Origin: Candidatus Doudnabacteria bacterium
GTDB taxonomy: Bacteria > Patescibacteriota > Doudnabacteria > UBA920
Direction of reading: 5' to 3'
Assembly (NCBI GenBank): GCA_016788665.1
Contig: JAEUSF010000006.1
Span: 4,401 to 68,400, forward strand
DNA: 64,000 nt
Both the position numbers and the translations under genes were made by a program. The notes beneath the pieces were generated by a model. It had not been told where the DNA came from. It made no database searches and saw nothing but the letters and a program-made list of their open reading frames with translations. Numbering within the stretch: the first letter of the stretch is position 1; every line of letters begins with the position of its first letter. Of the stretch, positions 27,099 through 62,820 are shown one piece after another.

Positions 27099-27110
27099 TT
27101 ATAATAGTAA

Positions 27111-27145
27111 GGTGTCGTCCCGACTAGTCGGGACCACCCCAGCCA
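27111..27145 (+). repeat. direct repeat copy R: GGTGTCG + perfect palindrome GTCCCGACTAGTCGGGAC + duplicated tRNA-Gln 3' end ACCACCCCAGCCA
   Basis: 13 nt identical to the tRNA 3' end (27066-27078); followed by terminator hairpin CACCAATAAACATTGGTG plus T8 (27154-27179). Confidence 0.85.
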
Positions 27146-27753: not shown

Positions 27754-27868
27754 GGCGGACAGCAATGTTCGCTAAACCGTAACTTGGGGTTTGTTGTCCA
27801 AATGCGGCCACCTTGTGTGGCTTTCCATAATGTGACAAACCCTCCTTAACCCCAAAAGGAGATTTGTC

Positions 27869-28354: not shown

Positions 28355-28487
28355 CAATCAGGCGGTGTCGCATACAGCGATGCCGTTTTTTTTGGTAATA
28401 AATCCACGTCTCAGTTTAGCGTATTATAACTTTCTAAACTCGCCTAACACCCTAAGCTTCAAATAATTGTATATACAGCTAACACTG

Positions 28488-28540
28488 AGTAAAAATTAAA
28501 AAAACCGCGGGGCAGACTGGTTGGTCTGCTCCGCGGCTGG
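28488..28540 (-). terminator. rho-independent terminator for the secreted beta-helix-like gene
   Basis: CCGCGGAGCAGACC..GGTCTGCCCCGCGG hairpin followed by a U-run on the minus strand. Confidence 0.6.
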
Positions 28541-28551
28541 ATTACTTCTTG

Positions 28552-29808
28552 TTATTGGTTGCCGTACAGCTTCGCTTCACACTCCACCTTACCGGTAGAA
28601 GCCGCGTTGGTTTGCGCGGTAAACTTAACGGTAAAGCCGGTGTAAGTCTTGTTGCTAAACGACACCGAAGGCGCTGCGTAGCCTGCAAACTCCTGCACGC
28701 CACACCCCGACAGCGAGTAGTTGGCTACCCCCGGGAGAAAAGGCGTGAGGAAATTGACCACGTAGGTGCAGGTGGATCCTGCGACTGCCGCGGTCGTACA
28801 GTTACTCTGCGGGTCGGCGGCGGTAACCATACGCACGCTACTAAGTTTGGTTAGAACCCCGGTAGCCGTGCGTGTGTTGATGATGCTGCAATCCTTACAG
28901 GGCGTAACGCCGTCAGGACTTGAACCATTCGAGATGGTTGTGTTGTAAGCGGGAGTTTCCCCATTAGGACCCGCCGTATCTTCCGCAACAACGCCGCCAG
29001 CTCCGTTTCCGGAAGTCTGGACTCCATCCACAACGTGGTCAAGCCCTCGCAAACTCAGCCCCCTACTTCCATTCGTAACCCTGAGGCTGCGAAATGTGAA
29101 ATAGGTTGAACCCATAACGTAAGCACCGTAACCACTTCCGGAGAGGTTTATGTAACCTCCCCACACGTTTACGCGCACAAAGTTAGAGTTCGAAGACGGA
29201 TTTGATGGCACCGTTACCAACCCGTAGGTGAACACTCCGGTCCACACAACCTCGTGTAGGTCAATATCGCCGGTATAGCAAGGAGCGCTACCACCCTCCA
29301 CCGTGCAGAGCCCAGCAGGGCTCCAATAGGTATTCTTAAGCACCAAGCCATCGGTGCGGTAGCGGGTAGTATTTCTGTTCGCGAATATCACGTTCCGGAG
29401 TTTCGCCCGGATCATGTTGTCGAGCACCACAGCATTCGCAGTGTTACTGTTTGAGGTAGTCAAGTCGAAGATGATATCCTCGAACTGCACCCCGTAGGAA
29501 AACATGCCCGGAAAGCCCATTGTGAAGATGGTGCTGCAACCATTGCAGCTGAGCCTTACCATCCCGCCGTTCTTGGGCCGAAACCGCACAACCACCTCTG
29601 AGGGAATGGTATTCCAAAGCCCGACCGAGATTTTACAATCGGACTCGAACAGAACCTCGCCTCCCCCAGACAAGACAATCAGGGGGTAATTCTGTTGCAG
29701 CGACAACGACGCAGTACCATCTGCGCATGACGCTGCGGTTACCACGTAGCTTGTGGCAGCCTGTGTACTGGCTACGAGAGCCAGAAACAGGACAAGAAGT
29801 CTAAACAT
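28552..29808 (-). CDS. secreted Cys-containing Gly/Ser/Thr/Asn-rich protein, possible right-handed beta-helix; GC-rich
   Basis: ATG at 29808 with AAGGAGGAG SD; signal peptide MFRLLVLFLALVASTQA; repetitive N/G/S/T-rich segments typical of beta-helix adhesin/lyase folds; fold not proven. Confidence 0.55.
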   Translation of the reverse strand: MFRLLVLFLALVASTQAATSYVVTAASCADGTASLSLQQNYPLIVLSGGGEVLFESDCKISVGLWNTIPSEVVVRFRPKNGGMVRLSCNGCSTIFTMGFPGMFSYGVQFEDIIFDLTTSNSNTANAVVLDNMIRAKLRNVIFANRNTTRYRTDGLVLKNTYWSPAGLCTVEGGSAPCYTGDIDLHEVVWTGVFTYGLVTVPSNPSSNSNFVRVNVWGGYINLSGSGYGAYVMGSTYFTFRSLRVTNGSRGLSLRGLDHVVDGVQTSGNGAGGVVAEDTAGPNGETPAYNTTISNGSSPDGVTPCKDCSIINTRTATGVLTKLSSVRMVTAADPQSNCTTAAVAGSTCTYVVNFLTPFLPGVANYSLSGCGVQEFAGYAAPSVSFSNKTYTGFTVKFTAQTNAASTGKVECEAKLYGNQ

Positions 29809-30246
29809 TAACTCCTCCTTATGGGAGCTAGTGCCCGCACCTATAGCAAGGCGCAGATTTCCGAAATTATGACAGATTCCAGAGTGCACATTGAGGTCTC
29901 AGCGCAAATGACAAGCGCTTTATTTTGACCAGTGCCCGTTGGCACCTCTGTTGGCACAGAGGGTAATTATATTAAATATTCATTAAATTGTAAATAGTGC
30001 CCATATCCTAGCGGACAATTTACGCGAATTACCCACTAGGAAAATACTATAAATTAACTATACATGTAATAGCTTTTTAAAAGGTTGTTTGGTATTATTA
30101 CTAAAGTTAATAACAACTTTAGAATACCTTTTTAAACAAAAAATGTGTAATAAAATTACTAATGTAAAATAATTTTTAATATATTTATATTCTAAACATA
30201 AGCAAAACAATTTTATTTCATAATATACTTAGTTCAATACTCCCAT

Positions 30247-30636
30247 ATGACCAAAGACATAAAACAATACAATTCAAAACTAAAGGGCGAGGACAAAAAG
30301 ATTTGTAATATATTAGTAAAAGAAATATATGCAAATTTAAAAGAAGCGGAAAGCAAAGTCTGGCACGGGCATCCGGTGTGGTTTTTGGACGGAAACCCTA
30401 TAGTTGGCTACGGAAAGCTTAAGGCTTCAGTGCAATTGCTTTTCTGGAGCGGACAGACGTTTAAAGAAAAAGGGCTTAAGCCTGAAGGCAGTTTTAAAGC
30501 TGCCGAGGTACGCTATACTAAAGCAGAAGAAATAAGCACTACACACTTAACCAAGTGGTTAAAAAAAGCGAAAAAAATTCAATGGGATTATCAAAATATA
30601 GTCAAAAGAAAAGGTAAGCTAATTCGACTAAAATAA
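30247..30636 (+). CDS. DUF1801 (YdhG-like) domain protein
   Basis: ..VWHGHPVWFLDGNPIVGYGKLKASVQLLFWSGQTF.. matches the DUF1801 family; native AT-rich composition; bidirectional terminator 30643-30677. Confidence 0.6.
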   Translation: MTKDIKQYNSKLKGEDKKICNILVKEIYANLKEAESKVWHGHPVWFLDGNPIVGYGKLKASVQLLFWSGQTFKEKGLKPEGSFKAAEVRYTKAEEISTTHLTKWLKKAKKIQWDYQNIVKRKGKLIRLK

Positions 30637-30770
30637 CCTTGTTTACAAAACGCCTCTATGCCCATAGAGGCGTTTTGTATTTGTATGTATTAGCCTTCTA
30701 AATTTTTTTAGTTTATAATCTTAACATAGCGGGAAGTTGCCGCTCATCTTACCATGGTTCCAGGAGGACT

Positions 30771-31112
30771 ATGCTTCGCGCCAAAATCGCATTGGCCGCA
30801 ATGGCGGCCATGTCACTTGGTCTCTCAGCTCCCGCTGTTGAGACAACCCCCGAGCTCATTCCCGAGCTCGGAAAACAACAGCCCAAGTTCGCACCCGCTA
30901 CGGTCGAAGACGATACGGTCTGCGCCGTCGCCTACCAAGACGGCCCCAACCAAATTTTGGCACGTGAAAAAGACGTGCCGAAAGGGGCGAAGATTGTGGC
31001 AGTGTACACGGCCACAAAAAAAGAGTGCGCGCGCCTGGGACGACTCCCAAGCGTCAAAGCGCAAAAACGGGGTACGGTCATTCACTTTACAGCCCCCGCC
31101 CAGCCAAAGTAG
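30771..31112 (+). CDS. small secreted protein, GC-rich
   Basis: AGGAGG 5 nt upstream; signal peptide MLRAKIALAAMAAMSLGLSAPA; own terminator 31112-31137. Confidence 0.55.
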   Translation: MLRAKIALAAMAAMSLGLSAPAVETTPELIPELGKQQPKFAPATVEDDTVCAVAYQDGPNQILAREKDVPKGAKIVAVYTATKKECARLGRLPSVKAQKRGTVIHFTAPAQPK

Positions 31113-31195
31113 AGCACCTTGCTCTACTATTTTTTTGACCCTTTTTGTTTTTCTATTTATAATTCTCACACCAAGTTTAAGCCAGAGGAGGCCGA

Positions 31196-31612
31196 ATGCT
31201 GAGAATTCTGATTGTTCTATATTTCCTTTCTTGGGGCACATTCGAAGCCGCTGTGTGGCACCAAGAAGAAGTGGCGTCCGTAAAAACCCAAGGCCAAACC
31301 AAAAGCAAAGTGATCTTCCCCAGAGTCACGCTCGGAGAAAACTACCAAAGCGAAGTCGCTGTTATAAACACTTCACAAGCTGTTGGCTCATGTAGCCTGT
31401 CGGAGTACAGCCCAGAGCTATCACGGGTAGTGCGGGTAAGCCACACGCCAGTCATTGGCCCAGGAAAGCAGTTTAGTCTTCGGCTTGTGCCTGTCAAAAG
31501 CTTACAAAAGGCGTACATTGTAATAATTGCCAATTGTAACTTTGCAAGCACGGGCGTGCTCACAACGACTAACCTTCAAAAAAAACTCGCCACTGTAGAA
31601 CTGGCCTACTAA
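31196..31612 (+). CDS. small secreted protein, GC-rich (paralog pair with 31696)
   Basis: TTGACC-17-TATAAT promoter at about 31127-31155, GAGGAGG SD, signal peptide; shares the FP..x..S..N....C motif with the next gene. Confidence 0.55.
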   Translation: MLRILIVLYFLSWGTFEAAVWHQEEVASVKTQGQTKSKVIFPRVTLGENYQSEVAVINTSQAVGSCSLSEYSPELSRVVRVSHTPVIGPGKQFSLRLVPVKSLQKAYIVIIANCNFASTGVLTTTNLQKKLATVELAY

Positions 31613-31695
31613 AAGCACCTAAAGTTTCGGGTGCTTATTTTATTGACGAAAATGCTTTTATAAAGTAAGCTTTCAAGTTAACAAGGAGAGACGAA

Positions 31696-32124
31696 ATGAA
31701 GAAAGTAACAGGACTGTTTTGGGTCCTATTTTGGCTCTTTCTAATGACCAATGTTGTGGGTTTCTTGCGGAGCAACCTGTCTGAGTACACCGTGGTCAGA
31801 AAAAACTCAAAGAAAAAACGGGTTAAACTGGTATTTCCGAGCCTTAGCCAGGCGGAAAGCTACATGTCTACAATATGGCTCACCAACTACGGCAGAGCCA
31901 CCGCAAAGTGCCAAACGGACTACTACCTGGCCCACGGAAACGGGGAAAGATACTGGAGAGTGACCTCTACAATCTCCCCCCACTTCACCCACGTAGAGCC
32001 TCCTCCAGGCTATTCCGCCAAACAAACCGAGTACTCGGCCGTTTCTACGTGCGATGCCGGAGTTAGAGGCTACGCCATAGTCTACGGACCCAGTGGCGCC
32101 GTAGCTCTGTACGACGCCAAATAG
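31696..32124 (+). CDS. small secreted protein, GC-rich (paralog of 31196)
   Basis: AAGGAGAG SD, signal peptide MKKVTGLFWVLFWLFLMTNVVG; LVFPSLSQAESYMSTIWLTNYGRATAKC aligns with VIFPRVTLGENYQSEVAVINTSQAVGSC of the previous gene. Confidence 0.55.
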   Translation: MKKVTGLFWVLFWLFLMTNVVGFLRSNLSEYTVVRKNSKKKRVKLVFPSLSQAESYMSTIWLTNYGRATAKCQTDYYLAHGNGERYWRVTSTISPHFTHVEPPPGYSAKQTEYSAVSTCDAGVRGYAIVYGPSGAVALYDAK

Positions 32125-32215
32125 ACCGCCCCACCAAAGCAGATTTCTCTGCTTTTTTTATTTTTCCCAAATTATATAAAGTGCTATAATTAAGCATTAT
32201 TAAACATAAAATTTC

Positions 32216-33307
32216 ATGATAATTGTAGGCTTCCTTAGCTTTGTCCAGCTAACCCTGTTTTTCGGACATTTCATAGTGTATAAAACTTTTGTTAAATTTT
32301 TTCAAATTACCCATCCACAAAATCTTTTATACACACGCTTGGTTTTCCTTTTGCTTTCTATAAGTTTTTTGGTAGCCTCTGCACTTGCTTACAAGTTTTA
32401 TGGCAGTTTTGGCCGCACAGCATACGCCAGCGCAGCGGTATGGCTTGGAACTTTGTATTGGTTAGTCTGGGCAAGCCTTTTTGCCTGGATACTCTATTTC
32501 CTTCTCCCCCACTCCATCTCGCTCAAACTTGGTCAAAGTTTGTTTATTTTAGCCTTGTTAGTCAGCGCCTACGGTGTTTGGAATTCTTACCAAACCAAAG
32601 TTAAACATATAACCATCACAATTCCTAACTTACCATCTGAATGGCAGGGTAAAAAAGCAGTCCTTGTTTCCGACACTCACTTAGGCAACGTAAGAAGCTT
32701 AAATTTTTCAAAGCGGATAGCTGAACTAGTTAGCGCTCAAAATCCGGACATAGTATTGGTGCCTGGTGATTTTTACGACGGACCTCCCGCTAATTACGAG
32801 GAACTTGCCGAGCCTTTCGGAAAAATAAAATCGACCTATGGTGTTTATTTTGCTGCCGGCAACCACGAGGAGTTTGGCGATGCGGGACCTTTGTTGTCAG
32901 CCATAGCTAAATCCGGTGTTAAAGTTTTAAACAACCAAATAGAAAACGTAAATGGCCTGCAAATTATTGGAGTAGGTTACGGAGCCACTGTAAATAAGAC
33001 TTCGGAAAAAAGTATATTAGACGGATTAAACATAAACCGCGACCTTCCCAGCATCCTTCTTAAACATGCGCCTACGAACATAGAAACCGCAGAAGCTGCC
33101 GGAATCTCCCTGCAAGTTTCCGGACATACCCATTTAGGCCAAGTTTACCCGTTTAGATATTTAACTAAAAAAATCTACGGAAAGTTCCACTATGGAGCTT
33201 CGGCTTTAAACAACACGCAGGTCGTAACCACCAGTGGAGTCGGCACTTGGGGCCCGCCGCAAAGAGTCGGCACCAATTCAGAAATAGTTGTTATAACTTT
33301 TAGGTAA
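32216..33307 (+). CDS. membrane-anchored metallophosphoesterase (calcineurin-like)
   Basis: N-terminal TM helices; VSDTHLG, GDFYDG, GNHE, GHTHLGQ metallophosphatase motifs. Confidence 0.85.
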   Translation: MIIVGFLSFVQLTLFFGHFIVYKTFVKFFQITHPQNLLYTRLVFLLLSISFLVASALAYKFYGSFGRTAYASAAVWLGTLYWLVWASLFAWILYFLLPHSISLKLGQSLFILALLVSAYGVWNSYQTKVKHITITIPNLPSEWQGKKAVLVSDTHLGNVRSLNFSKRIAELVSAQNPDIVLVPGDFYDGPPANYEELAEPFGKIKSTYGVYFAAGNHEEFGDAGPLLSAIAKSGVKVLNNQIENVNGLQIIGVGYGATVNKTSEKSILDGLNINRDLPSILLKHAPTNIETAEAAGISLQVSGHTHLGQVYPFRYLTKKIYGKFHYGASALNNTQVVTTSGVGTWGPPQRVGTNSEIVVITFR

Positions 33308-34182
33308 TGACCGAAACAAAAAAAGGCGAATCTTATATTTTGGCAGAAACCCTGCTCTGGAGCTTGTTCCCGGTAATTACAGTTATATCTTTAAACCAAC
33401 TAAGGCCAATGTTTTCATTGGCCTTAAGCTCTTTTTTTGCTGCTATTTTTTTTGCTTGTGTAATTACTTATAAAAAACTTTGGCATGAACTCAAAGAGAG
33501 AAAAGCACTTTGGGACGTACTGTGGGGAACCTTGCTTTTAGGAATAATATATTACTTACTTCAATTCGCCGGATTGTCGCTCTCCACCCCAGGAAACGCT
33601 GCCCTCGTTTCGCAAATGGAAATACTTTTTAGTTTTTTATTGTTCAATGTGTGGAAAAAAGAACGCATAGATTTTTTGCACCTCACTGGCTCTGGCTTAA
33701 TGCTAATGGGTGCCGCTGTCGTGCTCTTACCCAAAGGTTCCGGCGTTGCCTTAGGCGACCTACTCATATTAATTTCAGCTGCCGTAGCTCCGTTTGGCAA
33801 CCTGTTCCAAGGCCGCGCAAGGAAACAAATTAGCAGCTATACCATAATGTTTCTGCGCAACGCAATAAGTTTTCCGGTCATACTTTTTATTGCTTTTTTG
33901 CTTGGACAAACGCACAGCGAAGTCAACACTTTCAAATCTTTATGGCCAGTTATTATTAACGGCATTTTTCTTCTAGGCATCTCAAAAATATTATGGCTGG
34001 AAGCAATTCACCGCATTCCGGTAGTAAAAGCAAACGCTTTCAACTGCATAGGACCTGCCTTCACTCTAATTTATGCTTATTTGCTTTTGGGTCAGCGCCC
34101 GAATGCCTTTCAAATTTTTTCCTTAGTACCAATATCGATAGGTATATATTTGCTTACCCGACCAGCCAAACAAACTCCATAA
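33307..34182 (+). CDS. DMT superfamily (EamA-like) transporter
   Basis: About 10 TM helices in two repeats typical of EamA; overlaps the upstream stop (ATGA). Confidence 0.7.
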   Translation: MTETKKGESYILAETLLWSLFPVITVISLNQLRPMFSLALSSFFAAIFFACVITYKKLWHELKERKALWDVLWGTLLLGIIYYLLQFAGLSLSTPGNAALVSQMEILFSFLLFNVWKKERIDFLHLTGSGLMLMGAAVVLLPKGSGVALGDLLILISAAVAPFGNLFQGRARKQISSYTIMFLRNAISFPVILFIAFLLGQTHSEVNTFKSLWPVIINGIFLLGISKILWLEAIHRIPVVKANAFNCIGPAFTLIYAYLLLGQRPNAFQIFSLVPISIGIYLLTRPAKQTP

Positions 34183-34315
34183 ATTAAACGAGTAATACAA
34201 ACCAAATAGCCGCTTACCAATCTTCCCTGGGAAGATTTTTTATTTAATTACTTCTTAAGTTTTTTTAGCTATGGTGTACTTAGTCAATAAAATTTTAAAC
34301 TAATTGCACAAACTT

Positions 34316-35035
34316 ATGCCACAAAATTACAAGAAAGACTTAAGTCCGCCCAAAAAAACACTAACCCAACAACAGCTCGAACTTATTCGTAATACCGTAG
34401 CCAAAGGTGCCACGCCTGACGAGCTAAAACTGTTTTTAATAGTAGCCAACAGAGCCGGTCTCGACCCTTTTACAAGACAAATACACTTTGTAAAGAGGGG
34501 TGGCAGAGCCACAGTACAGACTGGTATAGACGGCTATAGAGCCATAGCAGAAAGAAGCGGGAGCCTGGCGGGCATAGAAGACGCATTATACGACGCCGAA
34601 GACCAAGTCCACCCGAACAAAGCCACGGTGACAGTTTATAGAATGGTGAGTGGGCAAAGAGTTCCGTTTAGTGCTTCTGCCAGATGGGATGAATACGTGC
34701 CCCAAAGCGGACAAGACTTTATGTGGCGGAAAATGCCCTACTTTATGCTCGGTAAAGTTGCGGAAGCATTAGCTTTAAGAAAAGCATTCCCAAACGACTT
34801 AAGCGGACTTTACATTCACGAGGAAATGCAACGTGACGACAACAGTACGGAAAATGATTCAGAAGCGCTAATAAATCACAACAGCACCTCTCAAGAAAAA
34901 GAAAGTTCTTTAGACCCCACATTAACTGCCGCAAAAGATTACTCAAAAAAATTCTGGTCCCGCGCCGAACAACAAACACCTGCCTCAGAAAAACAAGCGC
35001 CTGTTTACCAAAAAGAAGCACTAGACGAGCCCTAA
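34316..35035 (+). CDS. recT: RecT/Bet-family phage single-strand annealing recombinase
   Basis: LTQQQLELIRNTVAKGATPDELKLFLIVANRAGLDPFTRQIHFVKRGGRATVQTGIDGYRAIAERSG is a textbook RecT (PF03837) core; track start is TTG, ATG at 34316. Confidence 0.8.
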   Translation: MPQNYKKDLSPPKKTLTQQQLELIRNTVAKGATPDELKLFLIVANRAGLDPFTRQIHFVKRGGRATVQTGIDGYRAIAERSGSLAGIEDALYDAEDQVHPNKATVTVYRMVSGQRVPFSASARWDEYVPQSGQDFMWRKMPYFMLGKVAEALALRKAFPNDLSGLYIHEEMQRDDNSTENDSEALINHNSTSQEKESSLDPTLTAAKDYSKKFWSRAEQQTPASEKQAPVYQKEALDEP

Positions 35036-35077
35036 AAAAAGCTTGTAAAGAGTAAGGGTTAACAAAACAACAAAGCA

Positions 35078-35117
35078 GCAAAATACCTCAATACTAGCTA
35101 GTATTAAGGTATTTTGC
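35078..35117. repeat. 40-nt palindrome, copy 2 (39 of 40 palindromic)
   Basis: GCAAAATACCTCAATACTAGCTAGTATTAAGGTATTTTGC; the single mismatch is at 35106. Confidence 0.9.
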
Positions 35118-35177
35118 TAAATAACACGCAGTGACAGACTAATGGATACATGCTAAAATTCTCTGCAAGGAGGCCGC

Positions 35178-35555
35178 ATGCTTGTACTTCTAGCACTGGT
35201 CACGACGATTTTCGCCGCTGAACCCACGCAAAAAAATCTAGACGCGAGTCCAGGCTTCGTCTGGGGCTACATAGCCCGCGAAGTTAGTTGGATAACGCGG
35301 TCAGAAAGCGGGTACCTGGAACTCGTTCGTGCAGACTTGGTCTGCACCGACAAAACCGAGCGGCGCTGTGCTGCTCTTAGGCAGTACCTTATTCCACTGC
35401 CGAAGACCAACTACATGATATTTACGAAAAAGGACTTCCCACTGGGAAGTCCGAAACAACCCCGCGACGAAAACCCTGCGAGGTTAGTAAGTCCGGGGGT
35501 TGTAATCCCCCTGCTTCAAAAGCTCCAACAAGAGCCCGGGCATTCTAATCAATAG
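35178..35555 (+). CDS. small secreted protein, GC-rich
   Basis: AAGGAGG SD, signal peptide MLVLLALVTTIFAAEP; terminator hairpin about 35528-35578. Confidence 0.55.
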   Translation: MLVLLALVTTIFAAEPTQKNLDASPGFVWGYIAREVSWITRSESGYLELVRADLVCTDKTERRCAALRQYLIPLPKTNYMIFTKKDFPLGSPKQPRDENPARLVSPGVVIPLLQKLQQEPGHSNQ

Positions 35556-35567
35556 AAATGCCAGGGC

Positions 35568-36560
35568 TTATTTTTTTATAAAGCTAGCCTCAAAAGCCCA
35601 AGCCGTACACTTGCTTAATTGCTCTTCAGACATAATACCGTGCTTTTTCAAAAATTCTTCTTCATGCACGATATTGCTTTTATACATTTCTGGCCCGTCT
35701 GTATTTATTGTGAACTTAACTTTATTTTGCAATAAAGTTTTTACTACCAAAGCTAATTCGCCAATATTTTTTAAAACGCTATTTCTTAAATTTGAAGTCG
35801 GACAAATCTCCAAAGTTATATTATTCTTTACGATATCAGCCATAACCTTTTTGTCTTTCACGCACAAAATTCCATGGCCAATTCTGTCAGGTTTTATCTG
35901 CCTCACAACATACCTTAACTCTTCTAAACTCCCTGCCTCACCCGTATGTATGGTTACTCCCAAACCAGCCGCTCTGGCTTTTTTAAAAAGGGGAGCATGT
36001 TTTTTCATAGAAAAAGTTTTTCTCTCCGGGTCAGCTATGTCAATGCCAATAACTCCTTGAGATTTATACTTTATGGCTTTATCGAGAATTATAGAATTCT
36101 GCTCAAAAGACAAAGATCTTCCCATCATAAGAATAATCCCAGCTCTAACTTGAGGATATTCAAGCATGGCCCTTTCCGTTCCCCACAAAGCTGAATAAAT
36201 AATGTGGTCCAAATCCCGCTCTCCTCCTCTGTTTCTTTTCATGGGATTAAACCTCAGCTCATGGAGCACGATATTGCTTTTCCTATAACCTCCAGCGATC
36301 GTACCTTTTACTGACTCTTCTATCGCTTCCGGGGAAGACTGAATAAGTTCGGTCCAATGGTAAAATTGCTTATCCATTTGGTCAAGGTTTTTATTTTTTT
36401 CCTCACCAGTCATGGTTATAAGGTCCTCAAATTCCCAATAATTTTTGGTCGGTAACTTAATCCCCTGCCGGTGAGCAATCGCCCAAAGTATAGAAGGATG
36501 CACAGCCGCTCCTAAATGAGAATGAAGTTCAACATGTTGTTTGAATATTTTTTGTGGCAA
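35568..36560 (-). CDS. adenosine/AMP deaminase family protein
   Basis: HVELHSHL metal-binding HxH, THTGE and NTDGP motifs of the adenosine deaminase TIM barrel; TTG start. Confidence 0.7.
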   Translation of the reverse strand: MPQKIFKQHVELHSHLGAAVHPSILWAIAHRQGIKLPTKNYWEFEDLITMTGEEKNKNLDQMDKQFYHWTELIQSSPEAIEESVKGTIAGGYRKSNIVLHELRFNPMKRNRGGERDLDHIIYSALWGTERAMLEYPQVRAGIILMMGRSLSFEQNSIILDKAIKYKSQGVIGIDIADPERKTFSMKKHAPLFKKARAAGLGVTIHTGEAGSLEELRYVVRQIKPDRIGHGILCVKDKKVMADIVKNNITLEICPTSNLRNSVLKNIGELALVVKTLLQNKVKFTINTDGPEMYKSNIVHEEEFLKKHGIMSEEQLSKCTAWAFEASFIKK

Positions 36561-36664
36561 GTGTTTAATTAGCTGTTAATACTTAAAAGTTAGTAGGTGA
36601 TAGTTTGTAGCCGAACAAAATTTGCTAATTGCTTACTACCAGCCCCTAAGGGGCCCCTTCGGGG

Positions 36665-38389
36665 CTATCTGGTTGGGGCAACCTGATAATAGTTTAATAT
36701 AAATTTAGCAATTTCGCCAAATGCTGGGGCAGCGGTACTCTCGGCATATTGCACAGTTTTTGGCTCGTCTATTCTCACAAGCATTAAAAATTTTGGATCC
36801 TCTACAGGACCAAATCCTATAAAACTTCCAATTGTAGCATGCTCCTCATAGCCTAAACCATTTTGTTTTGAAATCTGCGCAGTGCCGGTCTTACCCGCAA
36901 TATAATACCCCGGAACTCCAGCCCTTTTACCATGACCATTCTCAACTACATTTACCATCATGGCTGTAACCGTATTGGAAGTTTGAGCAGAAATAATATC
37001 TTTTAATATGGATACTTTTGTATCCTGCCTGTTACCAAACGGATCTATTTTAGAAGCCACAATATATGGTTTAAGCATCTTACCCCCATTTGCAATAGCT
37101 GTAAAAGCCTGAATCATTTGAATGGGCGTTACAGAAATACCCTGGCCAAAACTTGCGGTAGCATAGTTAATTTTGATTTTAAACTTTAAATTATCCAAGC
37201 TACCTTTTTTTTCTGGAAGCTCTATGCCAGTCTTTTCTCCAAAACCAAAATCTTTCAAATACCGCAAAAAAATATCGTCCCCAATTTGGTCTTTTGCAAA
37301 AATAACACCTGTATTCAATGATTGCTCAAGCACCTGCGTCATAGTCTGCACACCTCGGGGTTTAGGATCCGAATTCTTTATTACCTTGTCATCTATTTTT
37401 ATCTGACCTTCGTCAACATAAGTAGTATCTGCCTTAATTTTTCCCTCATTTAAGGCAGCGGCTAAAGTAAGAGGTTTAAAAATCGAGCCCGGTTCATAAA
37501 CCCCCGTAACTGTTTCATTATTAAAAGCAGCCGGATCAACAACCTTATTAAACTGGTTAGGGTCAAAAGTAGGATACGAAGCCATAGCTAAAATTTTGCC
37601 AGTCTTAGGGTCGGCAACTATAACTGAACCGCCAGTTGCCCCATGCTTTACTACAGCATCCGCCAAAATCTCCTCGGCTTTATACTGAATATTTTTATCT
37701 ATTGTGAGAATTAAAGAATCACCATCCTTTACCGGCTCTGTCTGTCTTTTGCCTCCAAATATCCATGCCCCACTTATATCGCCCTCCTGTTTGACCACAC
37801 CCTCTTTACCAGCCAAAGCTTCTTCTTCATATCCTTCTAAACCATAAATACCTTGTCTTAAATCACCCTTATAACCAACAAATCCTAGCACGTGGGCAAG
37901 TAACTGACCTTGAGGGTAATATCTGGCACCCTCATTGTCAAAATATATTCCACTTAAATTCAAAGTTCGAATTTTTTCCTGGTCTTCTTCCGTCAACTGC
38001 TTTTTTAAAATTATATATTTTTTATCCTTATTAACAAGCTTGGGTAATAAATCCTCTTCTGGTAGTCTCAAAACTCCCGACAGGCTTGCCGCAACAAGAT
38101 TAGGATTTTGTATTTCTCCTGGAACCGTATACACCAAAGGCTTTTGAATATTGGTAGCCACCGGTAATAATTGTTGAGTTGAACGGTCAATTATACTAAT
38201 TTGCCCTCGGCTTGGCAATAACCTTAGTACCATACTTCGCTGATTTTCTGCTTTTTGCCTATTTTCGTTCCCATTAACTATTTGTAACTGAGCTAATCTA
38301 GCTATTATTGCCAGAAAGCCAAATACGAAAAAAGCAGCTAACAAACTGCTTCTTTCCAAATTTAAACTTTTATTTTTTTTACTAACCAT
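36665..38389 (-). CDS. ftsI: penicillin-binding protein 2/FtsI-type transpeptidase
   Basis: N-terminal TM, dimerisation domain, SxxK (GSIFKP), SLN and KTGT motifs; position in the dcw cluster. Confidence 0.85.
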   Translation of the reverse strand: MVSKKNKSLNLERSSLLAAFFVFGFLAIIARLAQLQIVNGNENRQKAENQRSMVLRLLPSRGQISIIDRSTQQLLPVATNIQKPLVYTVPGEIQNPNLVAASLSGVLRLPEEDLLPKLVNKDKKYIILKKQLTEEDQEKIRTLNLSGIYFDNEGARYYPQGQLLAHVLGFVGYKGDLRQGIYGLEGYEEEALAGKEGVVKQEGDISGAWIFGGKRQTEPVKDGDSLILTIDKNIQYKAEEILADAVVKHGATGGSVIVADPKTGKILAMASYPTFDPNQFNKVVDPAAFNNETVTGVYEPGSIFKPLTLAAALNEGKIKADTTYVDEGQIKIDDKVIKNSDPKPRGVQTMTQVLEQSLNTGVIFAKDQIGDDIFLRYLKDFGFGEKTGIELPEKKGSLDNLKFKIKINYATASFGQGISVTPIQMIQAFTAIANGGKMLKPYIVASKIDPFGNRQDTKVSILKDIISAQTSNTVTAMMVNVVENGHGKRAGVPGYYIAGKTGTAQISKQNGLGYEEHATIGSFIGFGPVEDPKFLMLVRIDEPKTVQYAESTAAPAFGEIAKFILNYYQVAPTR

Positions 38390-58128: not shown

Positions 58129-59094
58129 TCTAGATATTACTTTTCTGATAGCAGCTTTTATTGACTTAATTCCCATACAATACTTTTCTATTAACTCCTC
58201 AGGCTGACCAGACTCTCCAAATGAATTAGGCATGCCTACCATTTCAACCGGCACAGGAAAATTTTGGGCCAATACTTCACACACAGCGCTACCACACCCA
58301 GCCATCGTTTGATGCTCTTCCACAGTTACCACGGCCTTACATTTTTTCGCAGCTTCAATAATTGTTTCCGAATCTATAGGCTTTATTGTGTGGTTATTTA
58401 TAACCATGCAACTTACGTTTTCCTTTTCCATTTCCGCCGCAGCAACCAGCGCATTGTAAAGCACTGGCCCGCTCCCAATAATTACCACATCCGAACCGTC
58501 CTTGAAAACCTCAGCTTTTCCTACAGTAAATGAAGAACTGTTTGTCGTAATAATTGGCGTCTTAGAACGACCGAGACGAAAGTAAGCTGGACCGGCCATC
58601 TTTCCCAAAGCAACCGTTGCTTTTCTGGCTTCCAGGGCATCACAAGGCACAACAACAGTCAAATTGGGCAACACTCGGGTAATAGCAACATCTTCTAAAG
58701 CTTGATGAGTGGCTCCATCGGGCCCAACCGTAACACCTGTATGAGCTCCAGCTATTTTTACATTTGCCATACTATAACAAACACTTACCCTTAATTGGTC
58801 CCAATTCCGTCCCGGGGAAAAAGTAGCGTAAGAAGAAACAAATGGCACTTTACCATATAAAGCCAGACCTGCTGCAACACCCATCATGTTCTGCTCAGCT
58901 ACACCGCATTCCACAAACCTTTCGGGATACTTTTTAGCAAAATCTAATACCATAGTGCTTTCAGCCAAGTCAGCCGTTAAAACTACAACATTTTCATCTA
59001 TTGCTGCCAAATCTAAAAGCCCTAAGCCGTAACCTTTGCGCGTTGGCTCTTGCTCAATATCACTATTTCCAATTTTGGGATTCAAATAAGTCAT
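58114..59094 (-). CDS. transketolase, C-terminal (pyrimidine-binding plus C-terminal) subunit
   Basis: Split-transketolase C half with conserved Pyr-domain motifs. Confidence 0.85.
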   Translation of the reverse strand: MTYLNPKIGNSDIEQEPTRKGYGLGLLDLAAIDENVVVLTADLAESTMVLDFAKKYPERFVECGVAEQNMMGVAAGLALYGKVPFVSSYATFSPGRNWDQLRVSVCYSMANVKIAGAHTGVTVGPDGATHQALEDVAITRVLPNLTVVVPCDALEARKATVALGKMAGPAYFRLGRSKTPIITTNSSSFTVGKAEVFKDGSDVVIIGSGPVLYNALVAAAEMEKENVSCMVINNHTIKPIDSETIIEAAKKCKAVVTVEEHQTMAGCGSAVCEVLAQNFPVPVEMVGMPNSFGESGQPEELIEKYCMGIKSIKAAIRKVISRKNSK

Positions 59095-59336
59095 TTCCTT
59101 TTATATTGATTTTCTCCTGTCACCATTTTACGTCTCACCACCATCTGCCTATTAAACTCAGGCTCCTTTAAACCATACCCTTCTGCTAATATCAAATAAT
59201 CCACCCGTGAATTGCATTGTCTTAACTCTTCTTCTAATTTGGTCAAAGCCTCTTCGGGTTCTTTTGCTCTTGCAGAAACCCACTCGACTATAATACTTTC
59301 TGCGTACGAGCTATTAAAATTTTCTTCTTCAGTCAT
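59091..59336 (-). CDS. small acidic hypothetical protein between the two tkt halves
   Basis: 81 aa; overlaps tktC by ATGA; no family recognised. Confidence 0.35.
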   Translation of the reverse strand: MTEEENFNSSYAESIIVEWVSARAKEPEEALTKLEEELRQCNSRVDYLILAEGYGLKEPEFNRQMVVRRKMVTGENQYKRK

Positions 59337-59380: not shown

Positions 59381-60232
59381 TTACTTATGCTCGCTATCTA
59401 TCTGACCTCTTAAAGTCCTTAATTCCTCTAGAGCTACTTTTGCCTGCTCCTTATTTGGCGGACTACCGTGCCATTTAAAATCACCTTCCATAAAATCCAC
59501 GCCCTTCCCAGGTATAGTATGCGCAATTATCACCGTTGGTTTTTCATAAATGGCTTTTGCTTCCATACATGCGTTTATAATAGCTTGATGATTATGTCCA
59601 TCCACCTCCAAAACATGCCAATTAAAAGCTTCGTATTTGGCTTTTAAATTATCTAAAGGCATAACATCCTCTGTGTAACCGTCTATTTGTATATTATTGC
59701 GATCAATTATTGCCGTAAGATTATGAAGTTTGTACTTTCCTGCAAACATAATCGCTTCCCAAACCTGACCTTCCTGCTGCTCGCCGTCAGACATAATTAA
59801 ATAAACCCTCTGAGACTTTTTTCTGTCCATATAAAGTCCGTAGGCCATACCAACCGCCTGACTTGCTCCTTGTGCTAAGGGTCCTGAAGAAGTTTCTATC
59901 CCAGGCAAGCTTAAATTATGCGGGTGGCCGTGCAAACGGGTTCCAAATTTTCTTAAAGTTTTAAGTTCATCTTTCATAAAATAACCTGCCTCCGCCAAAC
60001 TTGCATATAAAACGGGACATATATGCCCACACGACAAAACTAACCTATCACGTTCTTCTAGCTTGGGTCTTTTTGGGTCATGATTCAGGACACTAAAATA
60101 CAAACAAGCAAAAATATCGGCCATACCTAAAGGCCCGGCACTATGTCCGCTACCTGCTTCTAAAAGCATTTGCACTATATCTTGCCGTATATCGTTGGCT
60201 TTGTATTTTATTTCGTTTATAGATAACTTCAT
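59381..60232 (-). CDS. transketolase, N-terminal (TPP-binding) subunit
   Basis: GSGHSAGPLGMADI..., GDG-type TPP/metal-binding region. Confidence 0.85.
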   Translation of the reverse strand: MKLSINEIKYKANDIRQDIVQMLLEAGSGHSAGPLGMADIFACLYFSVLNHDPKRPKLEERDRLVLSCGHICPVLYASLAEAGYFMKDELKTLRKFGTRLHGHPHNLSLPGIETSSGPLAQGASQAVGMAYGLYMDRKKSQRVYLIMSDGEQQEGQVWEAIMFAGKYKLHNLTAIIDRNNIQIDGYTEDVMPLDNLKAKYEAFNWHVLEVDGHNHQAIINACMEAKAIYEKPTVIIAHTIPGKGVDFMEGDFKWHGSPPNKEQAKVALEELRTLRGQIDSEHK

Positions 60233-60354
60233 AATATTGAAGCAACCTCTCCCTGCCCTCTCCTAAAAAGGAGAGGGAAAGGCTACAACTGCATTCCTCT
60301 CCCCTCCTAGAATAGGAGGGGTGTCCCGATTTATCGGGACGGGGTGGTAGAGAC

Positions 60355-60689
60355 CTACGATAAATACCTTTTTATTTCTTGAACAACTCCATTTAAATCA
60401 CTTAATACTTCTTTATTTTGGAATCTAATTATTTTAATACCCTGACTCTCTATAAACCCTGCGCGTTTTATATCATTCTGATAGCTTACAGCATTATCAT
60501 GAGTAGAGCCATCTAGCTCAATTCCCAAACGTAACTCTGGGCAATAAAAATCTAAAGAATAAATTCCTACACCATATTGCCTTCTAAACTTTTTACCTAG
60601 TTTATTACCTTTTAATTGTCTCCAAAGTATAATTTCCGGAAGGCCAAGGTTGTTTCTGAGTTTTTGCCTTAGGCCTTTTTAATTAGCAT
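60355..60689 (-). pseudogene. DUF559 (Vsr-like restriction-endonuclease-fold) gene with an N-terminal frameshift
   Basis: Minus-strand translation LRNNLGLPEIILWRQLKGNKLGKKFRRQYGVGIYSLDFYCPELRLGIELDGSTHDNAVSYQNDIKRAGFIESQGIKIIRFQNKEVL matches DUF559; the only ATG (MLIKKA, 60689) is in another frame and hits a stop after 6 codons; one frame change would restore a ~113-aa protein. Confidence 0.65.
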
Positions 60690-60846
60690 TGTTGTATAAG
60701 TAGTCCATACTCTACCACCTCCCGTCGCTAGCGCGACGTACTCCTCCTGTTCCAAGAGGAGAATACTGCAACAGCTTTCTTTCTAATACAGAATTCCAAT
60801 TTTACTTTACTTAATAAAATACTTCTTTTTTATCTTTTAGGTTACA

Positions 60847-61482
60847 TTAATTGGCATTCAACTTTTCAAAAGCCTCTTTTGGGTTTTCAGTTTTTACAAT
60901 AGCACTACCCACAACAATTAAATCTGCACCTGCCTCTTTTATACTTTTTATATTAGTTTCATTGACGCCACCGTCTATTTCTATTATAGCATGCGGCAGT
61001 AAAGCTTTAAGCTCTTTGATTCGTTCGAGAGTTTCCGGAAAAAAAGGAGAGCCTTGAAACCCAGGCTTAATTCCCATTAACTGAAAATTTTTCAAAAATA
61101 CGTAATCCGTCAAATATGACACAGGAGTGTCTAAATTCAAACAAACAGCAGGCTCTAACCCTAAATCTTGAATTTGCTTTAGGGCTTGGGTTAATAAATT
61201 CTTATTGGAATAAGCCTCATAATGCAAAACTACCTTTTTGAATCCACAAATCTTGTAATCTAAAAAATCTTTAGGCTCTTCGCACATAATATGAGCTTCC
61301 CAAATAAAGGCAGGATTTAACGCATCAATTTCAGCTACGGGAAGTAAGGTGTTGGGAACAAATTTTCCATCAGCAAAGTCCACCTGGATTCTTTCGACAC
61401 CAGGAATTTTTGTAACCAAAGAAGAGGTGGCAGAAAATTTTTCTTTAGTTTGCTCTAAAATTGCCGGAATAATAATAGCCAT
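60847..61482 (-). CDS. rpe: ribulose-phosphate 3-epimerase
   Basis: VDFADGKFVPN, ..HIMCE.., IEIDGGVN TIM-barrel motifs. Confidence 0.85.
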   Translation of the reverse strand: MAIIIPAILEQTKEKFSATSSLVTKIPGVERIQVDFADGKFVPNTLLPVAEIDALNPAFIWEAHIMCEEPKDFLDYKICGFKKVVLHYEAYSNKNLLTQALKQIQDLGLEPAVCLNLDTPVSYLTDYVFLKNFQLMGIKPGFQGSPFFPETLERIKELKALLPHAIIEIDGGVNETNIKSIKEAGADLIVVGSAIVKTENPKEAFEKLNAN

Positions 61483-62690: not shown

Positions 62691-62785
62691 TTTTTATTCT
62701 TTAACTGTTTTAAAAACATTTTTATTTTGCAAGCAGATACTACAATATTTTACTAACTTTGACCACGTAAACTTAATCTTGTTAA

Positions 62786-62820
62786 CTTACTTCTTACTTC
62801 CTAATTCTTCATTTACCTAA
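62786..62820. repeat. heptad array CTTACTT-CTTACTT-CCTAATT-CTTCATT-TACCTAA overlapping the galT stop codon
   Basis: Read directly. Confidence 0.85.

What the first reader, a model, noticed from the sequence alone, without database searches (positions are those of the whole stretch)
60233..60846. A 600-nt intergenic island between the tkt N-subunit gene and rpe: inverted-repeat-flanked DUF559 endonuclease pseudogene with GC-rich hairpin clusters
On the minus strand an almost complete DUF559 (Vsr-like endonuclease fold) ORF runs 60355-60678. Its only ATG (60689) is out of frame by one nucleotide. The ORF is bracketed by an imperfect inverted repeat, GGGGTGGTAGAG (60341-60352) against CTCTACCACCTCCC (60710-60723). 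Outside this lie GC-rich hairpins: CCCTCTCCT-AAAAA-GGAGAGGG, CCCCTCCT-AGAAT-AGGAGGG and the GTCCCGA hairpin on one side; CGTCGCTAGCGCGACG and CTCCTC..GAGGAG on the other. These contrast sharply with the AT-rich host. The whole looks like a decayed miniature selfish element inserted into an otherwise tight metabolic gene cluster.
Basis: seen in the sequence. Interest (0 to 1): 0.65.

Follow-up and report, generated by a model that had tools for sequence, protein, structure and literature searches.

The report
Nuclease gene framed by triplex-motif repeats
The rpe–tkt spacer holds a small DUF559 (Vsr-like) nuclease gene knocked out by one stop codon and framed by inverted "BoxC-like" triplex/hairpin DNA repeats; this gene–repeat pairing recurs across bacterial phyla and may give an orphan repeat family its first candidate protein partner.

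Summary
The sequence features are real, but two readings need correction. The DUF559 gene (PF04480, E=2e-26) is a full 117-codon ORF (60708→60355, minus strand). It is not frameshifted: an in-frame ATG lies at 60708-60706, and codon 10 is TAA (60681-60679) where homologues have Q/K/R. The "inverted repeat plus GC hairpins" are three intrastrand purine-motif triplex motifs of the BoxC/PIT/TM kind known from E. coli. Two are inverted composite copies with a covarying hairpin in loop 2 (60297-60354, 60708-65). One is a simple copy (60246-77). No other copy occurs in the 64 kb, and none in 20 shuffles.

The cassette is not a decaying recent insert. Intact orthologues with the same repeats sit at the same rpe–tktN site in other Doudnabacteria (dN/dS <0.1). 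Two relatives have an empty 70-85-nt spacer. The closest relative carries a different DUF559 gene with other triplex motifs.

In 80 DUF559 loci from several phyla, triplex motifs are about 26-fold denser beside the gene (OR 10, p=7e-13). I found no report of this link.

My best reading is a REP/RAYT-like nuclease–repeat cassette, here freshly inactivated. The anatomy is shown; the enzyme–repeat mechanism is inferred.

The parts
60355..60708 (-). DUF559 (Vsr-like PD-(D/E)xK) nuclease gene of 117 codons. Start ATG at 60708-60706, premature TAA at codon 10 (60681-60679), natural stop TAG at 60357-60355. A pseudogene, or at best an N-terminally truncated product.
   Evidence: Pfam PF04480 E=2e-26. 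Homologues of 117 aa at 72-81% identity fix the start and show sense codons at position 10. The profile hits PDB 3HRL at 2e-18. NCBIfam PRK09767 (YcjD) scores 76 bits, below its cut-off.
60708..60765 (-). Upstream composite triplex-motif repeat ('type B'). Read on the minus strand: Y-block CTCCTCTT 60761-60754, R-block AGGAGGAG 60748-60741, loop 2 (60740-60722) holding the hairpin GTCGC/GCGAC, third block GAGGTGGT 60721-60714. The third block contains the GGAGG that serves as the likely ribosome-binding site of the DUF559 gene.
   Evidence: CM R1 hit of 64.8 bits, E=2e-16. Triplex-motif finder. DNA fold z=-3.5 to -4.5. The same module sits upstream of orthologues.
60297..60354 (+). Downstream composite triplex-motif repeat ('type A'), inverted relative to the upstream copy. 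Read on the plus strand: Y-block CCCCTCCT 60301-60308, R-block AGGAGGGG 60314-60321, loop-2 hairpin GTCCCGA/TCGGGAC 60323-60340, third block GGGGTGGT 60341-60348. It begins 3 nt after the gene's stop codon.
   Evidence: CM R1 hit of 64.1 bits. Triplex-motif finder. DNA fold -17.8 kcal/mol, z=-3.8.
60246..60277 (-). Simple BoxC/PIT-type triplex motif. On the minus strand: Y CCCTCTCC, R GGAGAGGG, third block GGGAGAGG, with loops of 6 and 2 nt. The extended palindrome spans about 60239-60292. It ends 13 nt before the tktN start codon.
   Evidence: Triplex-motif finder. [quoted passage not shown] The same type flanks other DUF559 genes (L081, L014, L032, L072).
60766..60846 (-). AT-rich (22% GC) spacer between the rpe stop codon and the cassette. 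No recognisable promoter or terminator.
   Evidence: Composition. Promoter and terminator scan found nothing in the spacer.
59381..60232 (-). Context: transketolase N-terminal subunit gene, downstream neighbour.
   Evidence: ORF list. 100% match to a Doudnabacteria transketolase.
60847..61482 (-). Context: ribulose-phosphate 3-epimerase gene, upstream neighbour.
   Evidence: ORF list. Synteny with PF00834 genes in relatives.

Best explanation
The island is a nuclease-plus-repeat cassette. A DUF559 (Vsr-like PD-(D/E)xK) nuclease gene is set tightly between two inverted copies of a ~55-nt GC-rich repeat. A third, simpler repeat lies next to tktN. Each repeat is an intrastrand purine-motif triplex motif of the BoxC/PIT/TM kind: a pyrimidine block, a complementary purine block, and a mirror-image G/T third block. 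The two composite copies carry an extra covarying hairpin in the second loop.

Shown:
- The gene and its repeats occur together as one unit. The same unit sits at the rpe-tktN site of many Doudnabacteria and is absent from others.
- Same-clade cassettes with the same repeats sit in at least three other genomic contexts.
- DUF559 genes of several phyla are flanked by such repeats far more often than their neighbours are.
- The repeats are constrained at the DNA level: stems are kept by double changes with almost no G-U pairs.

Inferred: the nuclease recognises or cuts the folded repeats (hairpin, cruciform or triplex DNA). This interaction would be what keeps gene and repeats together and occasionally moves or copies them. 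That parallels REP sequences with their RAYT transposase, and a homodimeric homing nuclease sitting between the halves of its palindromic site.

In this genome the nuclease has just been lost to one C-to-T-type nonsense change at codon 10. The repeats, and the rest of the ORF, are still intact.
For: Gene identity and lesion.

Module is real and structured:
- CM R1 finds only the two flanking copies in the window.
- Hairpin 1 has compensatory changes at 5 of 5 pairs. 98.8% of cells are paired, 0 of 500 shuffles reach this, and only 4 of 1390 cells are G-U.
- The triplex architecture matches the published BoxC/TM_ECO architecture.
- The third block tracks the purine block through 33 block variants, and the type A/B difference changes all three strands together (128 of 144).

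Linkage:
- 45 of 62 full R1 hits lie within 150 nt of the DUF559 gene.
- 57 of 80 loci have an up/down inverted repeat above the 95th percentile of shifted controls.
- Triplex-motif density is 3.07/kb near the gene against 0.12/kb elsewhere.
- 61 of 136 gene-adjacent gaps carry a motif against 10 of 135 other gaps (OR 10, p=7e-13).
- Filled rpe-tktN sites have motifs; the empty sites L082 and L083 have none.

Unit behaviour:
- Orthologues at the same site have intact genes and dN/dS <0.1.
- Same-clade cassettes lie after dnaX (L002), before a tRNA and hisS (L004), and between glyS and pepP (L005).
- The closest genome (TktN 93%) has a different DUF559 gene with different triplex motifs at the same site.

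E. coli parallel:
- ycjD (DUF559, 117 aa) has a BoxC-like element over its stop codon, and TM_ECO no. 9 lies 167 nt away.
- O157:H7 lacks both ycjD and the motifs at that locus.
Against: - No biochemical link between any DUF559 protein and these repeats is known, so the association is correlational.
- In an unbiased metagenome scan for the composite module, only 4-5 of 120 loci had a DUF559 gene. Most were gene-less inverted pairs with a 42-57-nt spacer. The repeats therefore persist without a neighbouring nuclease.
- In this window the repeats are not dispersed: only the three copies at the gene.
- No target-site duplication or clean element boundary could be defined.
- A PD-(D/E)xK nuclease alone is not a transposase.
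- E. coli O157:H7 lacks ycjD yet is reported to have 11 TM_ECO copies.
- Triplex formation in vivo was not supported by footprinting in E. coli (PMC4666352).
- Adjacent gaps are longer than other gaps, which inflates the per-gap comparison somewhat.
- The 15 phage-borne DUF559-like loci carry no such motifs.
Confidence: 0.5

Rival explanations
1. Housekeeping reading. The gene is (was) a solitary Vsr-like mismatch-repair nuclease kept for the cell's own benefit. The triplex/hairpin repeats are independent intergenic elements: instability hot spots, insulators or expression signals. They accumulate beside it without being its substrate. For example, small dispensable genes may survive preferentially at recombination-prone spacers, or the repeats may tune expression of a potentially toxic nuclease.
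For: - Long-term purifying selection and fixed position among Doudnabacteria.
- A DUF559 protein of Caulobacter (VsrA) behaves as a chromosomal Vsr-like nuclease causing DNA damage when its partner methylation is absent (PMC12907096).
- TM motifs are reported as hot spots of rearrangement.
- The rpe-tktN spacer also hosts other small genes in relatives (a 144-aa ORF in L066; a second ORF in L018).
- The third block of the upstream repeat supplies the GGAGG before the start codon.
Against: - This does not explain why the same repeat types travel with same-clade genes into four unrelated contexts.
- It does not explain why different DUF559 clades carry different but architecturally equal repeats in mirror arrangement, with the third block facing the gene on both sides.
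- It does not explain why non-DUF559 gaps in the same loci rarely have them.
- PIT elements showed no promoter or terminator activity in E. coli.
Confidence: 0.25
2. This is a decayed miniature selfish element (terminal inverted repeats plus a dead endonuclease gene) that inserted into a tight metabolic cluster and is on its way out.
For: - A premature stop codon.
- Eight lineage-specific replacements at otherwise conserved residues, against 3-4 in orthologues.
- Empty sites in two relatives.
- An independent in-frame TGA in the L003 orthologue.
Against: - Intact orthologues sit at the same site under strong purifying selection.
- Only one lesion in 117 codons.
- The repeats are fully intact and score as well as any family member.
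- No transposase and no target duplication.
Confidence: 0.15
3. RNA-level reading. The repeats act in the mRNA as 5' and 3' UTR structures that pair with each other and close the message into a panhandle. This would hide the ribosome-binding site of a toxic nuclease, comparable to fold-back inhibition in hok mRNA, or stabilise the neighbouring rpe and tkt messages as REP elements do.
For: - The minimum-energy RNA fold of 60233-60775(-) pairs the two modules over their whole length, including GGAGGUGGUAGAG with CUCUACCACC (-176.9 kcal/mol, z=-6.6).
- The 2-4 nt between each repeat and the ORF co-vary between left and right ends: AGAG/CTCT in the window, AGAC/GTCT in L001, AGAA/TTCT in L207.
Against: - G-U pairs are almost absent (4 of 1390 cells), which is unusual for RNA helices.
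- Any inverted repeat gives such a fold.
- Many gene-less copies exist in both orientations.
- Purine-motif triplexes do not form in RNA (statement in PMC4666352).
- No Rfam family matches.
Confidence: 0.1

Closest known systems
BoxC / PIT (potential intrastrand triplex) / TM_ECO repeats of E. coli and other bacteria (Bergler 1992 from memory; Hoyne & Maher 2000 and Holder et al. 2015 as cited in PMC4666352)
   Same: The three-block architecture is the same: a pyrimidine block, a short loop, a complementary purine block, a loop, and a G-rich third block that mirrors the purine block. Both are GC-rich and strictly intergenic. Both often occur as inverted pairs that combine two subtypes (A+B). 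Neither has promoter or terminator signals. Both are associated with variable loci.
   Different: The two copies around the gene carry an extra, covarying 5-7-bp hairpin inside loop 2 (loop 2 of about 19 nt instead of 3). The block sequences differ (AGGAGGRG/GRGGTGGT rather than GGGNGAGGG). The host is an AT-rich Patescibacterium rather than Proteobacteria or Cyanobacteria. The published work found no associated gene class or mobility gene, whereas here the repeats frame a DUF559 nuclease gene.
DUF559 / YcjD / Vsr-like PD-(D/E)xK nucleases (PF04480; PDB 3HRL; Caulobacter VsrA)
   Same: Clear profile match. Same size as E. coli YcjD (117 aa). The D..E-x-D-G..H core and the RFxN motif are kept.
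   Different: The ORF is interrupted by a stop at codon 10. No cytosine methyltransferase partner was examined. Function of this clade is untested.
REP/REPIN elements with their RAYT transposase ('REPtron')
   Same: A single-copy, largely vertically inherited gene is flanked by inverted copies of a short structured repeat. The repeat has an invariant single-stranded motif next to a covarying hairpin. Gene-less inverted doublets exist elsewhere. Two repeat subtypes alternate in orientation as in BIMEs (L009).
   Different: The enzyme is a PD-(D/E)xK nuclease, not an HUH Y1 transposase. Repeat copy number is low (three in 64 kb here). The repeat has triplex-type mirror symmetry. Cross-phylum sequence conservation is higher than for REPs.
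Free-standing homing endonuclease genes, including the Vsr-fold family of I-Bth0305I
   Same: A small nuclease gene shows presence/absence polymorphism at a fixed site. Inverted half-sites lie on both sides, as expected if a dimeric nuclease gene sits in the middle of its palindromic target. Different family members compete for the same site (window versus L081).
   Different: Empty sites in relatives lack the half-sites, so the repeats arrive with the gene. There is no intron or intein. There is long-term purifying selection at one site.
MITEs / IS elements with terminal inverted repeats
   Same: Inverted terminal repeats. Short gene-less derivatives occur (an inverted pair with a 42-57-nt spacer).
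   Different: No transposase. No target-site duplication found. The arms keep structure rather than sequence identity between left and right copies.

Membership tests
DUF559 (PF04480) Vsr-like nuclease | Significant match to the family profile over its full length | tested here: met
   E=2e-26, 92.4 bits against a cut-off of 20.6, profile positions 8-108 of 109.
DUF559 (PF04480) Vsr-like nuclease | Conserved catalytic core (D in hDFhC, E-x-D-G, H) retained | tested here: met
   D53, E64, D66, G67, H70, R95, Q97 and N98 are invariant in the 15-sequence alignment that includes the window copy. They align with 3HRL.
DUF559 (PF04480) Vsr-like nuclease | Uninterrupted ORF from the family's start codon | tested here: not met
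   TAA at codon 10 (60681-60679). NCBI annotates only a 92-aa product from a non-ATG start.
Vsr very-short-patch repair endonuclease (functional sense) | T:G mismatch nicking linked to a cytosine-5 methyltransferase | not testable with these tools
   There is no assay. Only the analogy to Caulobacter VsrA is available.
BoxC / PIT / TM intrastrand triplex motif | Three consecutive blocks: pyrimidine block, complementary purine block, and a third block giving G*G-C, A*A-T or T*A-T triads antiparallel to the purine block, with short loops | tested here: met
   60246-60277(-), 60301-60348(+) and 60714-60761(-) have 8-nt blocks with at most 1 mismatch. Twenty shuffles of the window gave 0 hits.
BoxC / PIT / TM intrastrand triplex motif | Match to the published TM_ECO consensus CCCTCNCCC-N3-6-GGGNGAGGG-N3-GGGNGAGGG | tested here: not met
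   Block sequences and the length of loop 2 differ. The simple copy at 60246-60277 is closest: CCCTCTCC/GGAGAGGG/GGGAGAGG with a loop 2 of 2 nt. These are relatives by architecture, not copies of the E. coli family.
BoxC / PIT / TM intrastrand triplex motif | Actual triplex formation | not testable with these tools
   Only sequence symmetry and three-strand covariation are available. The E. coli motif forms a triplex in vitro, but this was not shown in vivo.
REP/RAYT REPtron | HUH Y1 (RAYT) transposase gene | tested here: not met
   The enclosed gene is DUF559 and no other Pfam family matches at gathering score.
REP/RAYT REPtron | Gene flanked by inverted copies of the repeat | tested here: met
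REP/RAYT REPtron | Repeat dispersed in many copies in the same genome | tested here: not met
   Only the copies at the gene occur in this 64-kb window. The rest of the genome is not available.
IS / MITE transposable element | Terminal inverted repeats bounded by a target-site duplication, plus a transposase for the autonomous form | tested here: inconclusive
   Inverted repeats are present. No duplication was seen at the window, L204 or L130 borders. Filled and empty sites are too diverged to align. There is no transposase.
Intrinsic (rho-independent) terminator | GC-rich hairpin followed by a T-run | tested here: not met
   No terminator-like site was found in 60233-60846.
Any Rfam RNA family | Covariance-model match at or near gathering score | tested here: not met
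   Only sub-threshold chance hits in the region. Nothing at the modules in related loci.

The most novel reading that the evidence does not exclude
DUF559 nucleases are the dedicated protein partners of BoxC/PIT-type intrastrand triplex repeats. This would be a widespread nuclease–repeat system, analogous to RAYT–REPIN but built on a PD-(D/E)xK nuclease and triplex- or hairpin-forming DNA. In it the nuclease recognises the folded repeat and drives the repeat's spread, maintenance or the local instability reported for these motifs. The window would show a cassette caught just after loss of the enzyme.
Probability: 0.3. Interest if true: 0.8.

Novelty: new variant of a known kind. Interest (0 to 1): 0.6.

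Why it matters
BoxC/PIT/TM repeats have been known in E. coli since the 1990s. They occur in hundreds of genomes, yet they have no assigned function, no known binding protein and no known means of spread. The 2015 survey states that no mobility gene or gene class was found next to them. DUF559 is likewise one of the large "unknown function" nuclease families.

A tight, oriented link between the two, seen across phyla, would give each a testable partner. One could ask whether YcjD-type proteins bind or cut triplex or hairpin DNA, and whether they cause the instability seen at TM loci.

For genome annotation, the result also shows that such GC-rich hairpin clusters in AT-rich Patescibacteria are a definable repeat class rather than noise. 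It also shows that the gene here is a one-step pseudogene, or an assembly error, rather than a frameshifted relic.

Tried and rejected
- **Frameshift or programmed slippage at the A5 run (60682-60686).** Rejected once homologues showed the in-frame ATG and a sense codon at position 10.
- **Known structured RNA.** I ran Rfam at E≤10 on the region, gathering thresholds on the window and 18 loci, and E≤0.01 on 11 metagenome loci. That included a check of the Pedobacter loci for the Pedo-repair motif recalled from memory. No match.
- **Terminators or promoters.** None in the spacer.
- **A genome-wide REP family in this genome.** No further copy in 64 kb.
- **Exclusive association of the composite module with DUF559.** Rejected. 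Only 4-5 of 120 module-seeded metagenome loci have the gene.
- **Three-strand covariation from type A versus type B alone.** I judged this weak, because A and B are two linked haplotypes. It gains weight only with the many other block variants.
- **Similarity of TACCACCCC to the 3' end of the window's tRNA-Gln (27004-27075) and of GGUGGUA to the T-box core.** Treated as coincidence.
- **Phage carriage.** Fifteen distant viral DUF559-like loci carry no triplex motif.
- **E. coli strain correlation between ycjD and TM_ECO number.** Only suggestive. A/B1 strains have 19-30 copies and ycjD. O157:H7 lacks ycjD but is listed with 11 copies. B2 strains (1-2 copies) were not checked.
- **Target-site duplication or exact element ends.** Not found.
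- **Defence-system membership.** Only weak PADLOC hits to nuclease domains.

Full report
**What is at 60233-60846**

The region is the spacer between rpe (60847-61482) and the transketolase N-subunit gene (59381-60232). Both lie on the minus strand, inside a co-directional galT–tpi–rpiB–rpe–…–tktN–tktC–pfkB cluster. The closest database proteins are from Candidatus Doudnabacteria.

The minus-strand frame translates to MDYLYNNAN*KGLRQKLRNN…EIKRYLS*. The part after the internal stop matches Pfam DUF559 at E=2e-26 over nearly the whole profile.

**The lesion is a nonsense codon, not a frameshift**

- The best homologues are 117-aa proteins, 72-81% identical, that start MDYLYNN/MEYLYNN.
- This fixes the start at the in-frame ATG 60708-60706, 9 nt after GGAGG.
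- Codon 10 is TAA (60681-60679), where homologues have Q, K, R, Y, H or T.
- All residues invariant in the family are retained: D53, E64, D66, G67, H70, R95, Q97, N98.
- A family profile hits the structural-genomics entry 3HRL ('endonuclease-like protein') at 2e-18.
- The gene is therefore one point change away from intact. It could equally be an assembly error, which I cannot check.
- NCBI's own annotation calls a 92-aa product from a non-ATG start.

**The flanks are a defined repeat**

The same ~55-nt module brackets the gene in relatives, inverted on the two sides. It reads 5'-(CT)ACCACC[CT]C – hairpin 1 – AC[CT]CCTCCT – loop – AGGAGG[GA]G.

- A 24-sequence alignment gives hairpin 1 with compensatory changes at all five pairs.
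- The covariance model R1 finds exactly two hits in the window, at 60708-60765 and 60297-60354. Each scores about 64 bits.
- On 150 independent copies from metagenomes, 98.8% of cells pair and 0 of 500 shuffles reach this. All hairpin-1 pairs show double changes. Only 4 of 1390 cells are G-U.
- That pattern points to a constraint on DNA, or on both strands, rather than on one RNA.

**The repeats are triplex motifs**

Read on the G-rich strand, each module is a pyrimidine block, a loop, the complementary purine block, a second loop, and a third block. The third block mirrors the purine block, with G opposite G and T or A opposite A.

| Copy | Pyrimidine block | Purine block | Third block |
|---|---|---|---|
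| 60301-60348 (+) | CCCCTCCT | AGGAGGGG | GGGGTGGT |
| 60714-60761 (−) | CTCCTCTT | AGGAGGAG | GAGGTGGT |
| 60246-60277 (−), simple, before tktN | CCCTCTCC | GGAGAGGG | GGGAGAGG |

(All.)

This is the architecture of the BoxC / 'potential intrastrand triplex' / TM_ECO repeats of E. coli. The published pattern is CCCTCNCCC-N3-6-GGGNGAGGG-N3-GGGNGAGGG. Those repeats have 23 copies in MG1655. They often occur as inverted pairs combining a type A with a type B. They are reported to have no promoter or terminator activity, no associated gene class and no mobility genes, and to mark unstable loci (PMC4666352).

The two gene-flanking copies here are a variant with a covarying hairpin inserted in loop 2. 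They also come as an A/B pair.

My finder detects no such motif elsewhere in the 64 kb, and none in 20 shuffles. No Rfam family matches, and there is no T-tailed terminator.

**The cassette is conserved, polymorphic and relocatable**

- Intact orthologues with the same up- and downstream modules sit between rpe and tktN in L001, L204-L206 and L207.
- L003 has an independent in-frame TGA.
- Between orthologues, pS is 0.63-0.92, at or near saturation, while pN is 0.11-0.16. This indicates strong purifying selection.
- The window copy has 8 private changes at otherwise conserved residues, against 3-4 in the others. That is a mild sign of relaxation.
- The module sequences, even their loops, are more conserved than synonymous sites.
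- Two relatives (TktN 84% identical) have only a 70-85-nt rpe–tktN spacer and no triplex motif.
- The closest genome (TktN 93% identical) has a different DUF559 gene at this site, flanked by simple BoxC-like motifs.
- Same-clade cassettes (64-74% identical) with the composite modules also lie after dnaX (L002), before a tRNA and hisS (L004), and between glyS and an aminopeptidase gene (L005). These neighbour names are my reading of the ORFs.

So gene and repeats behave as one unit. It is mostly inherited vertically, but it has been gained, lost, replaced and relocated.

**The link is general**

| Test across 80 DUF559 loci (Patescibacteria, Bacteroidota, Planctomycetota, Proteobacteria) | Near the gene | Control |
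|---|---|---|
| Full R1 hits within 150 nt of the gene | 45 of 62 | – |
| Loci with an up/down inverted repeat above the 95th percentile of shifted controls | 57 of 80 (median score 41) | median score 19 |
| Generic triplex motifs per kb (within 200 nt versus elsewhere) | 3.07 | 0.12 |
| Intergenic gaps carrying a motif (gene-adjacent versus other) | 61 of 136 | 10 of 135 |

The last comparison gives an odds ratio of 10 and p=7e-13.

Different DUF559 clades carry different block sequences with the same layout, with the third block facing the gene on both sides.

E. coli ycjD fits the pattern. It encodes a DUF559 protein of 117 aa. A BoxC-like element overlaps its stop codon, and TM_ECO no. 9 lies 167 nt away. 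O157:H7 lacks ycjD and the motifs at this locus together.

I found no paper that notes this association. The 2015 survey explicitly reports none.

**Limits**

- The converse does not hold. In a metagenome scan seeded with the composite module, only 4-5 of 120 loci had a DUF559 gene.
- The common form there, mostly in gut Bacteroidales, is a gene-less inverted pair with a 42-57-nt AT-rich spacer. In L130, L158 and L168 the gene occupies the spacer's place.
- In a Cyclobacteriaceae contig the modules alternate in orientation like BIMEs, and a 237-nt doublet is repeated.
- I could not define element ends or a target duplication.
- There is no biochemical evidence.
- Within E. coli, ycjD status tracks TM_ECO copy number only loosely.

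**Mechanism**

Shown: the anatomy, conservation, covariation, co-occurrence, and gain and loss as a unit.

Inferred: the DUF559 nuclease recognises the folded repeats (hairpin, cruciform or triplex), as RAYT does with REPs. Alternatively, it sits as a dimeric nuclease gene between the halves of its palindromic site. Either way, this interaction would maintain or move the cassette. I put about 0.5 on this overall reading, and about 0.3 on the strong form of a dedicated nuclease–repeat system.

The rivals are:
- a housekeeping Vsr-like repair gene with independent neighbouring repeats (0.25);
- an mRNA panhandle that regulates translation (0.1). The whole-unit RNA fold does pair the two modules, with z=-6.6, but any inverted repeat would do so, and the near absence of G-U pairs argues against it.

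**Verdict**

The locus itself is an ordinary one-step pseudogene of a known family. Its frame of BoxC-like triplex repeats, and the family-wide link this exposes, are the interesting part.

Noticed in passing
window 27004-27145 (and 27600-36700): A tRNA (anticodon UUG by my reading, Gln) lies at 27004-27075 and ends …CCTACCACCCCAGCCA. About 35 nt later comes a partial repeat of its 3' end, GTCCCGACTAGTCGGGACCACCCCAGCCA (27117-27145). Many GC-rich (≥60%) stretches follow from about 27.6 to 36.7 kb. It looks like an att-type duplication at the border of an integrated element. The hairpin stem GTCCCGA/TCGGGAC is identical to hairpin 1 of the downstream module at 60323-60340.
   Followed up: no
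L001 ~2520-2830, L002 2437-2757, L003 ~2540-2870: A small predicted membrane protein gene (~105 aa, MKIFSLE.K…GWSV…RYF+KKN) sits immediately upstream of the DUF559 cassette in three genomes and in two different contexts (after rpe, and after dnaX). It may travel with the cassette. It is absent from the window, L204 and L207. No NCBIfam match.
   Followed up: partly
L081 1009-1386, L083 1531-1932, L207 202-1011 versus window 62691-62816: The galT–tpi spacer of relatives holds other small inserts: a PDDEXK_3 (PF13366) nuclease gene in two genomes and a Bro-N gene in one. The window has only a 126-nt spacer there. In L066 the rpe–tktN spacer holds a 144-aa ORF, and in L018 an extra 159-aa ORF. 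The spacers of this sugar-phosphate cluster appear to be recurrent landing sites for small accessory genes.
   Followed up: no
L086, L092, L094, L095, L105, L108 and about 30 further metagenome loci: Mostly in human-gut contigs (flanking genes look Bacteroidales), the composite module occurs as gene-less inverted pairs around a 42-57-nt AT-rich spacer. The spacer has a conserved core (AAATACCTAT.AATCA…AAGGAATT) that appears in either orientation relative to the arms. The palindrome extends outward (…AGTATCTCAATT). This suggests a MITE-like or possibly invertible unit.
   Followed up: partly
L009 750-3288: In a Cyclobacteriaceae contig, six modules of two subtypes (hairpin 1 GATTCTGC or GTCTCGAC) alternate in orientation around the DUF559 gene and around an unrelated 391-aa gene. 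A 237-nt doublet (1457-1687 versus 3047-3283) is 86% identical. This is a BIME/REPIN-like organisation.
   Followed up: partly
L208 (E. coli K-12 1351407-1351760 and flanks); ycjD is present in 3378 of 5426 complete E. coli genomes and is split by IS1 in some (H13, H22). Just downstream of ycjD in K-12 lies a ~70-nt partial duplicate of its 3' end, followed by TM_ECO no. 9. A perfect 15-bp hairpin (CACCTCATTCTGACA…TGTCAGAATGAGGTG) overlaps its GTG start.
   Followed up: partly
window 59091-59336: An 81-aa ORF with no Pfam match lies between tktN and tktC, overlapping the tktC start by 4 nt. It has counterparts of 72-81 aa at the same place in relatives (L081, L082). It is possibly a conserved small protein of the split-transketolase operon.
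   Followed up: no
L204 2912-2997: In this orthologue, hairpin 1 of the upstream module is expanded to a ~19-bp stem with a long loop (CCAGCACCACTTTTTTG…CAAAAAAGTGGTGCTGG), while the triplex blocks are unchanged. Loop 2 of the motif therefore tolerates large structured insertions.
   Followed up: no
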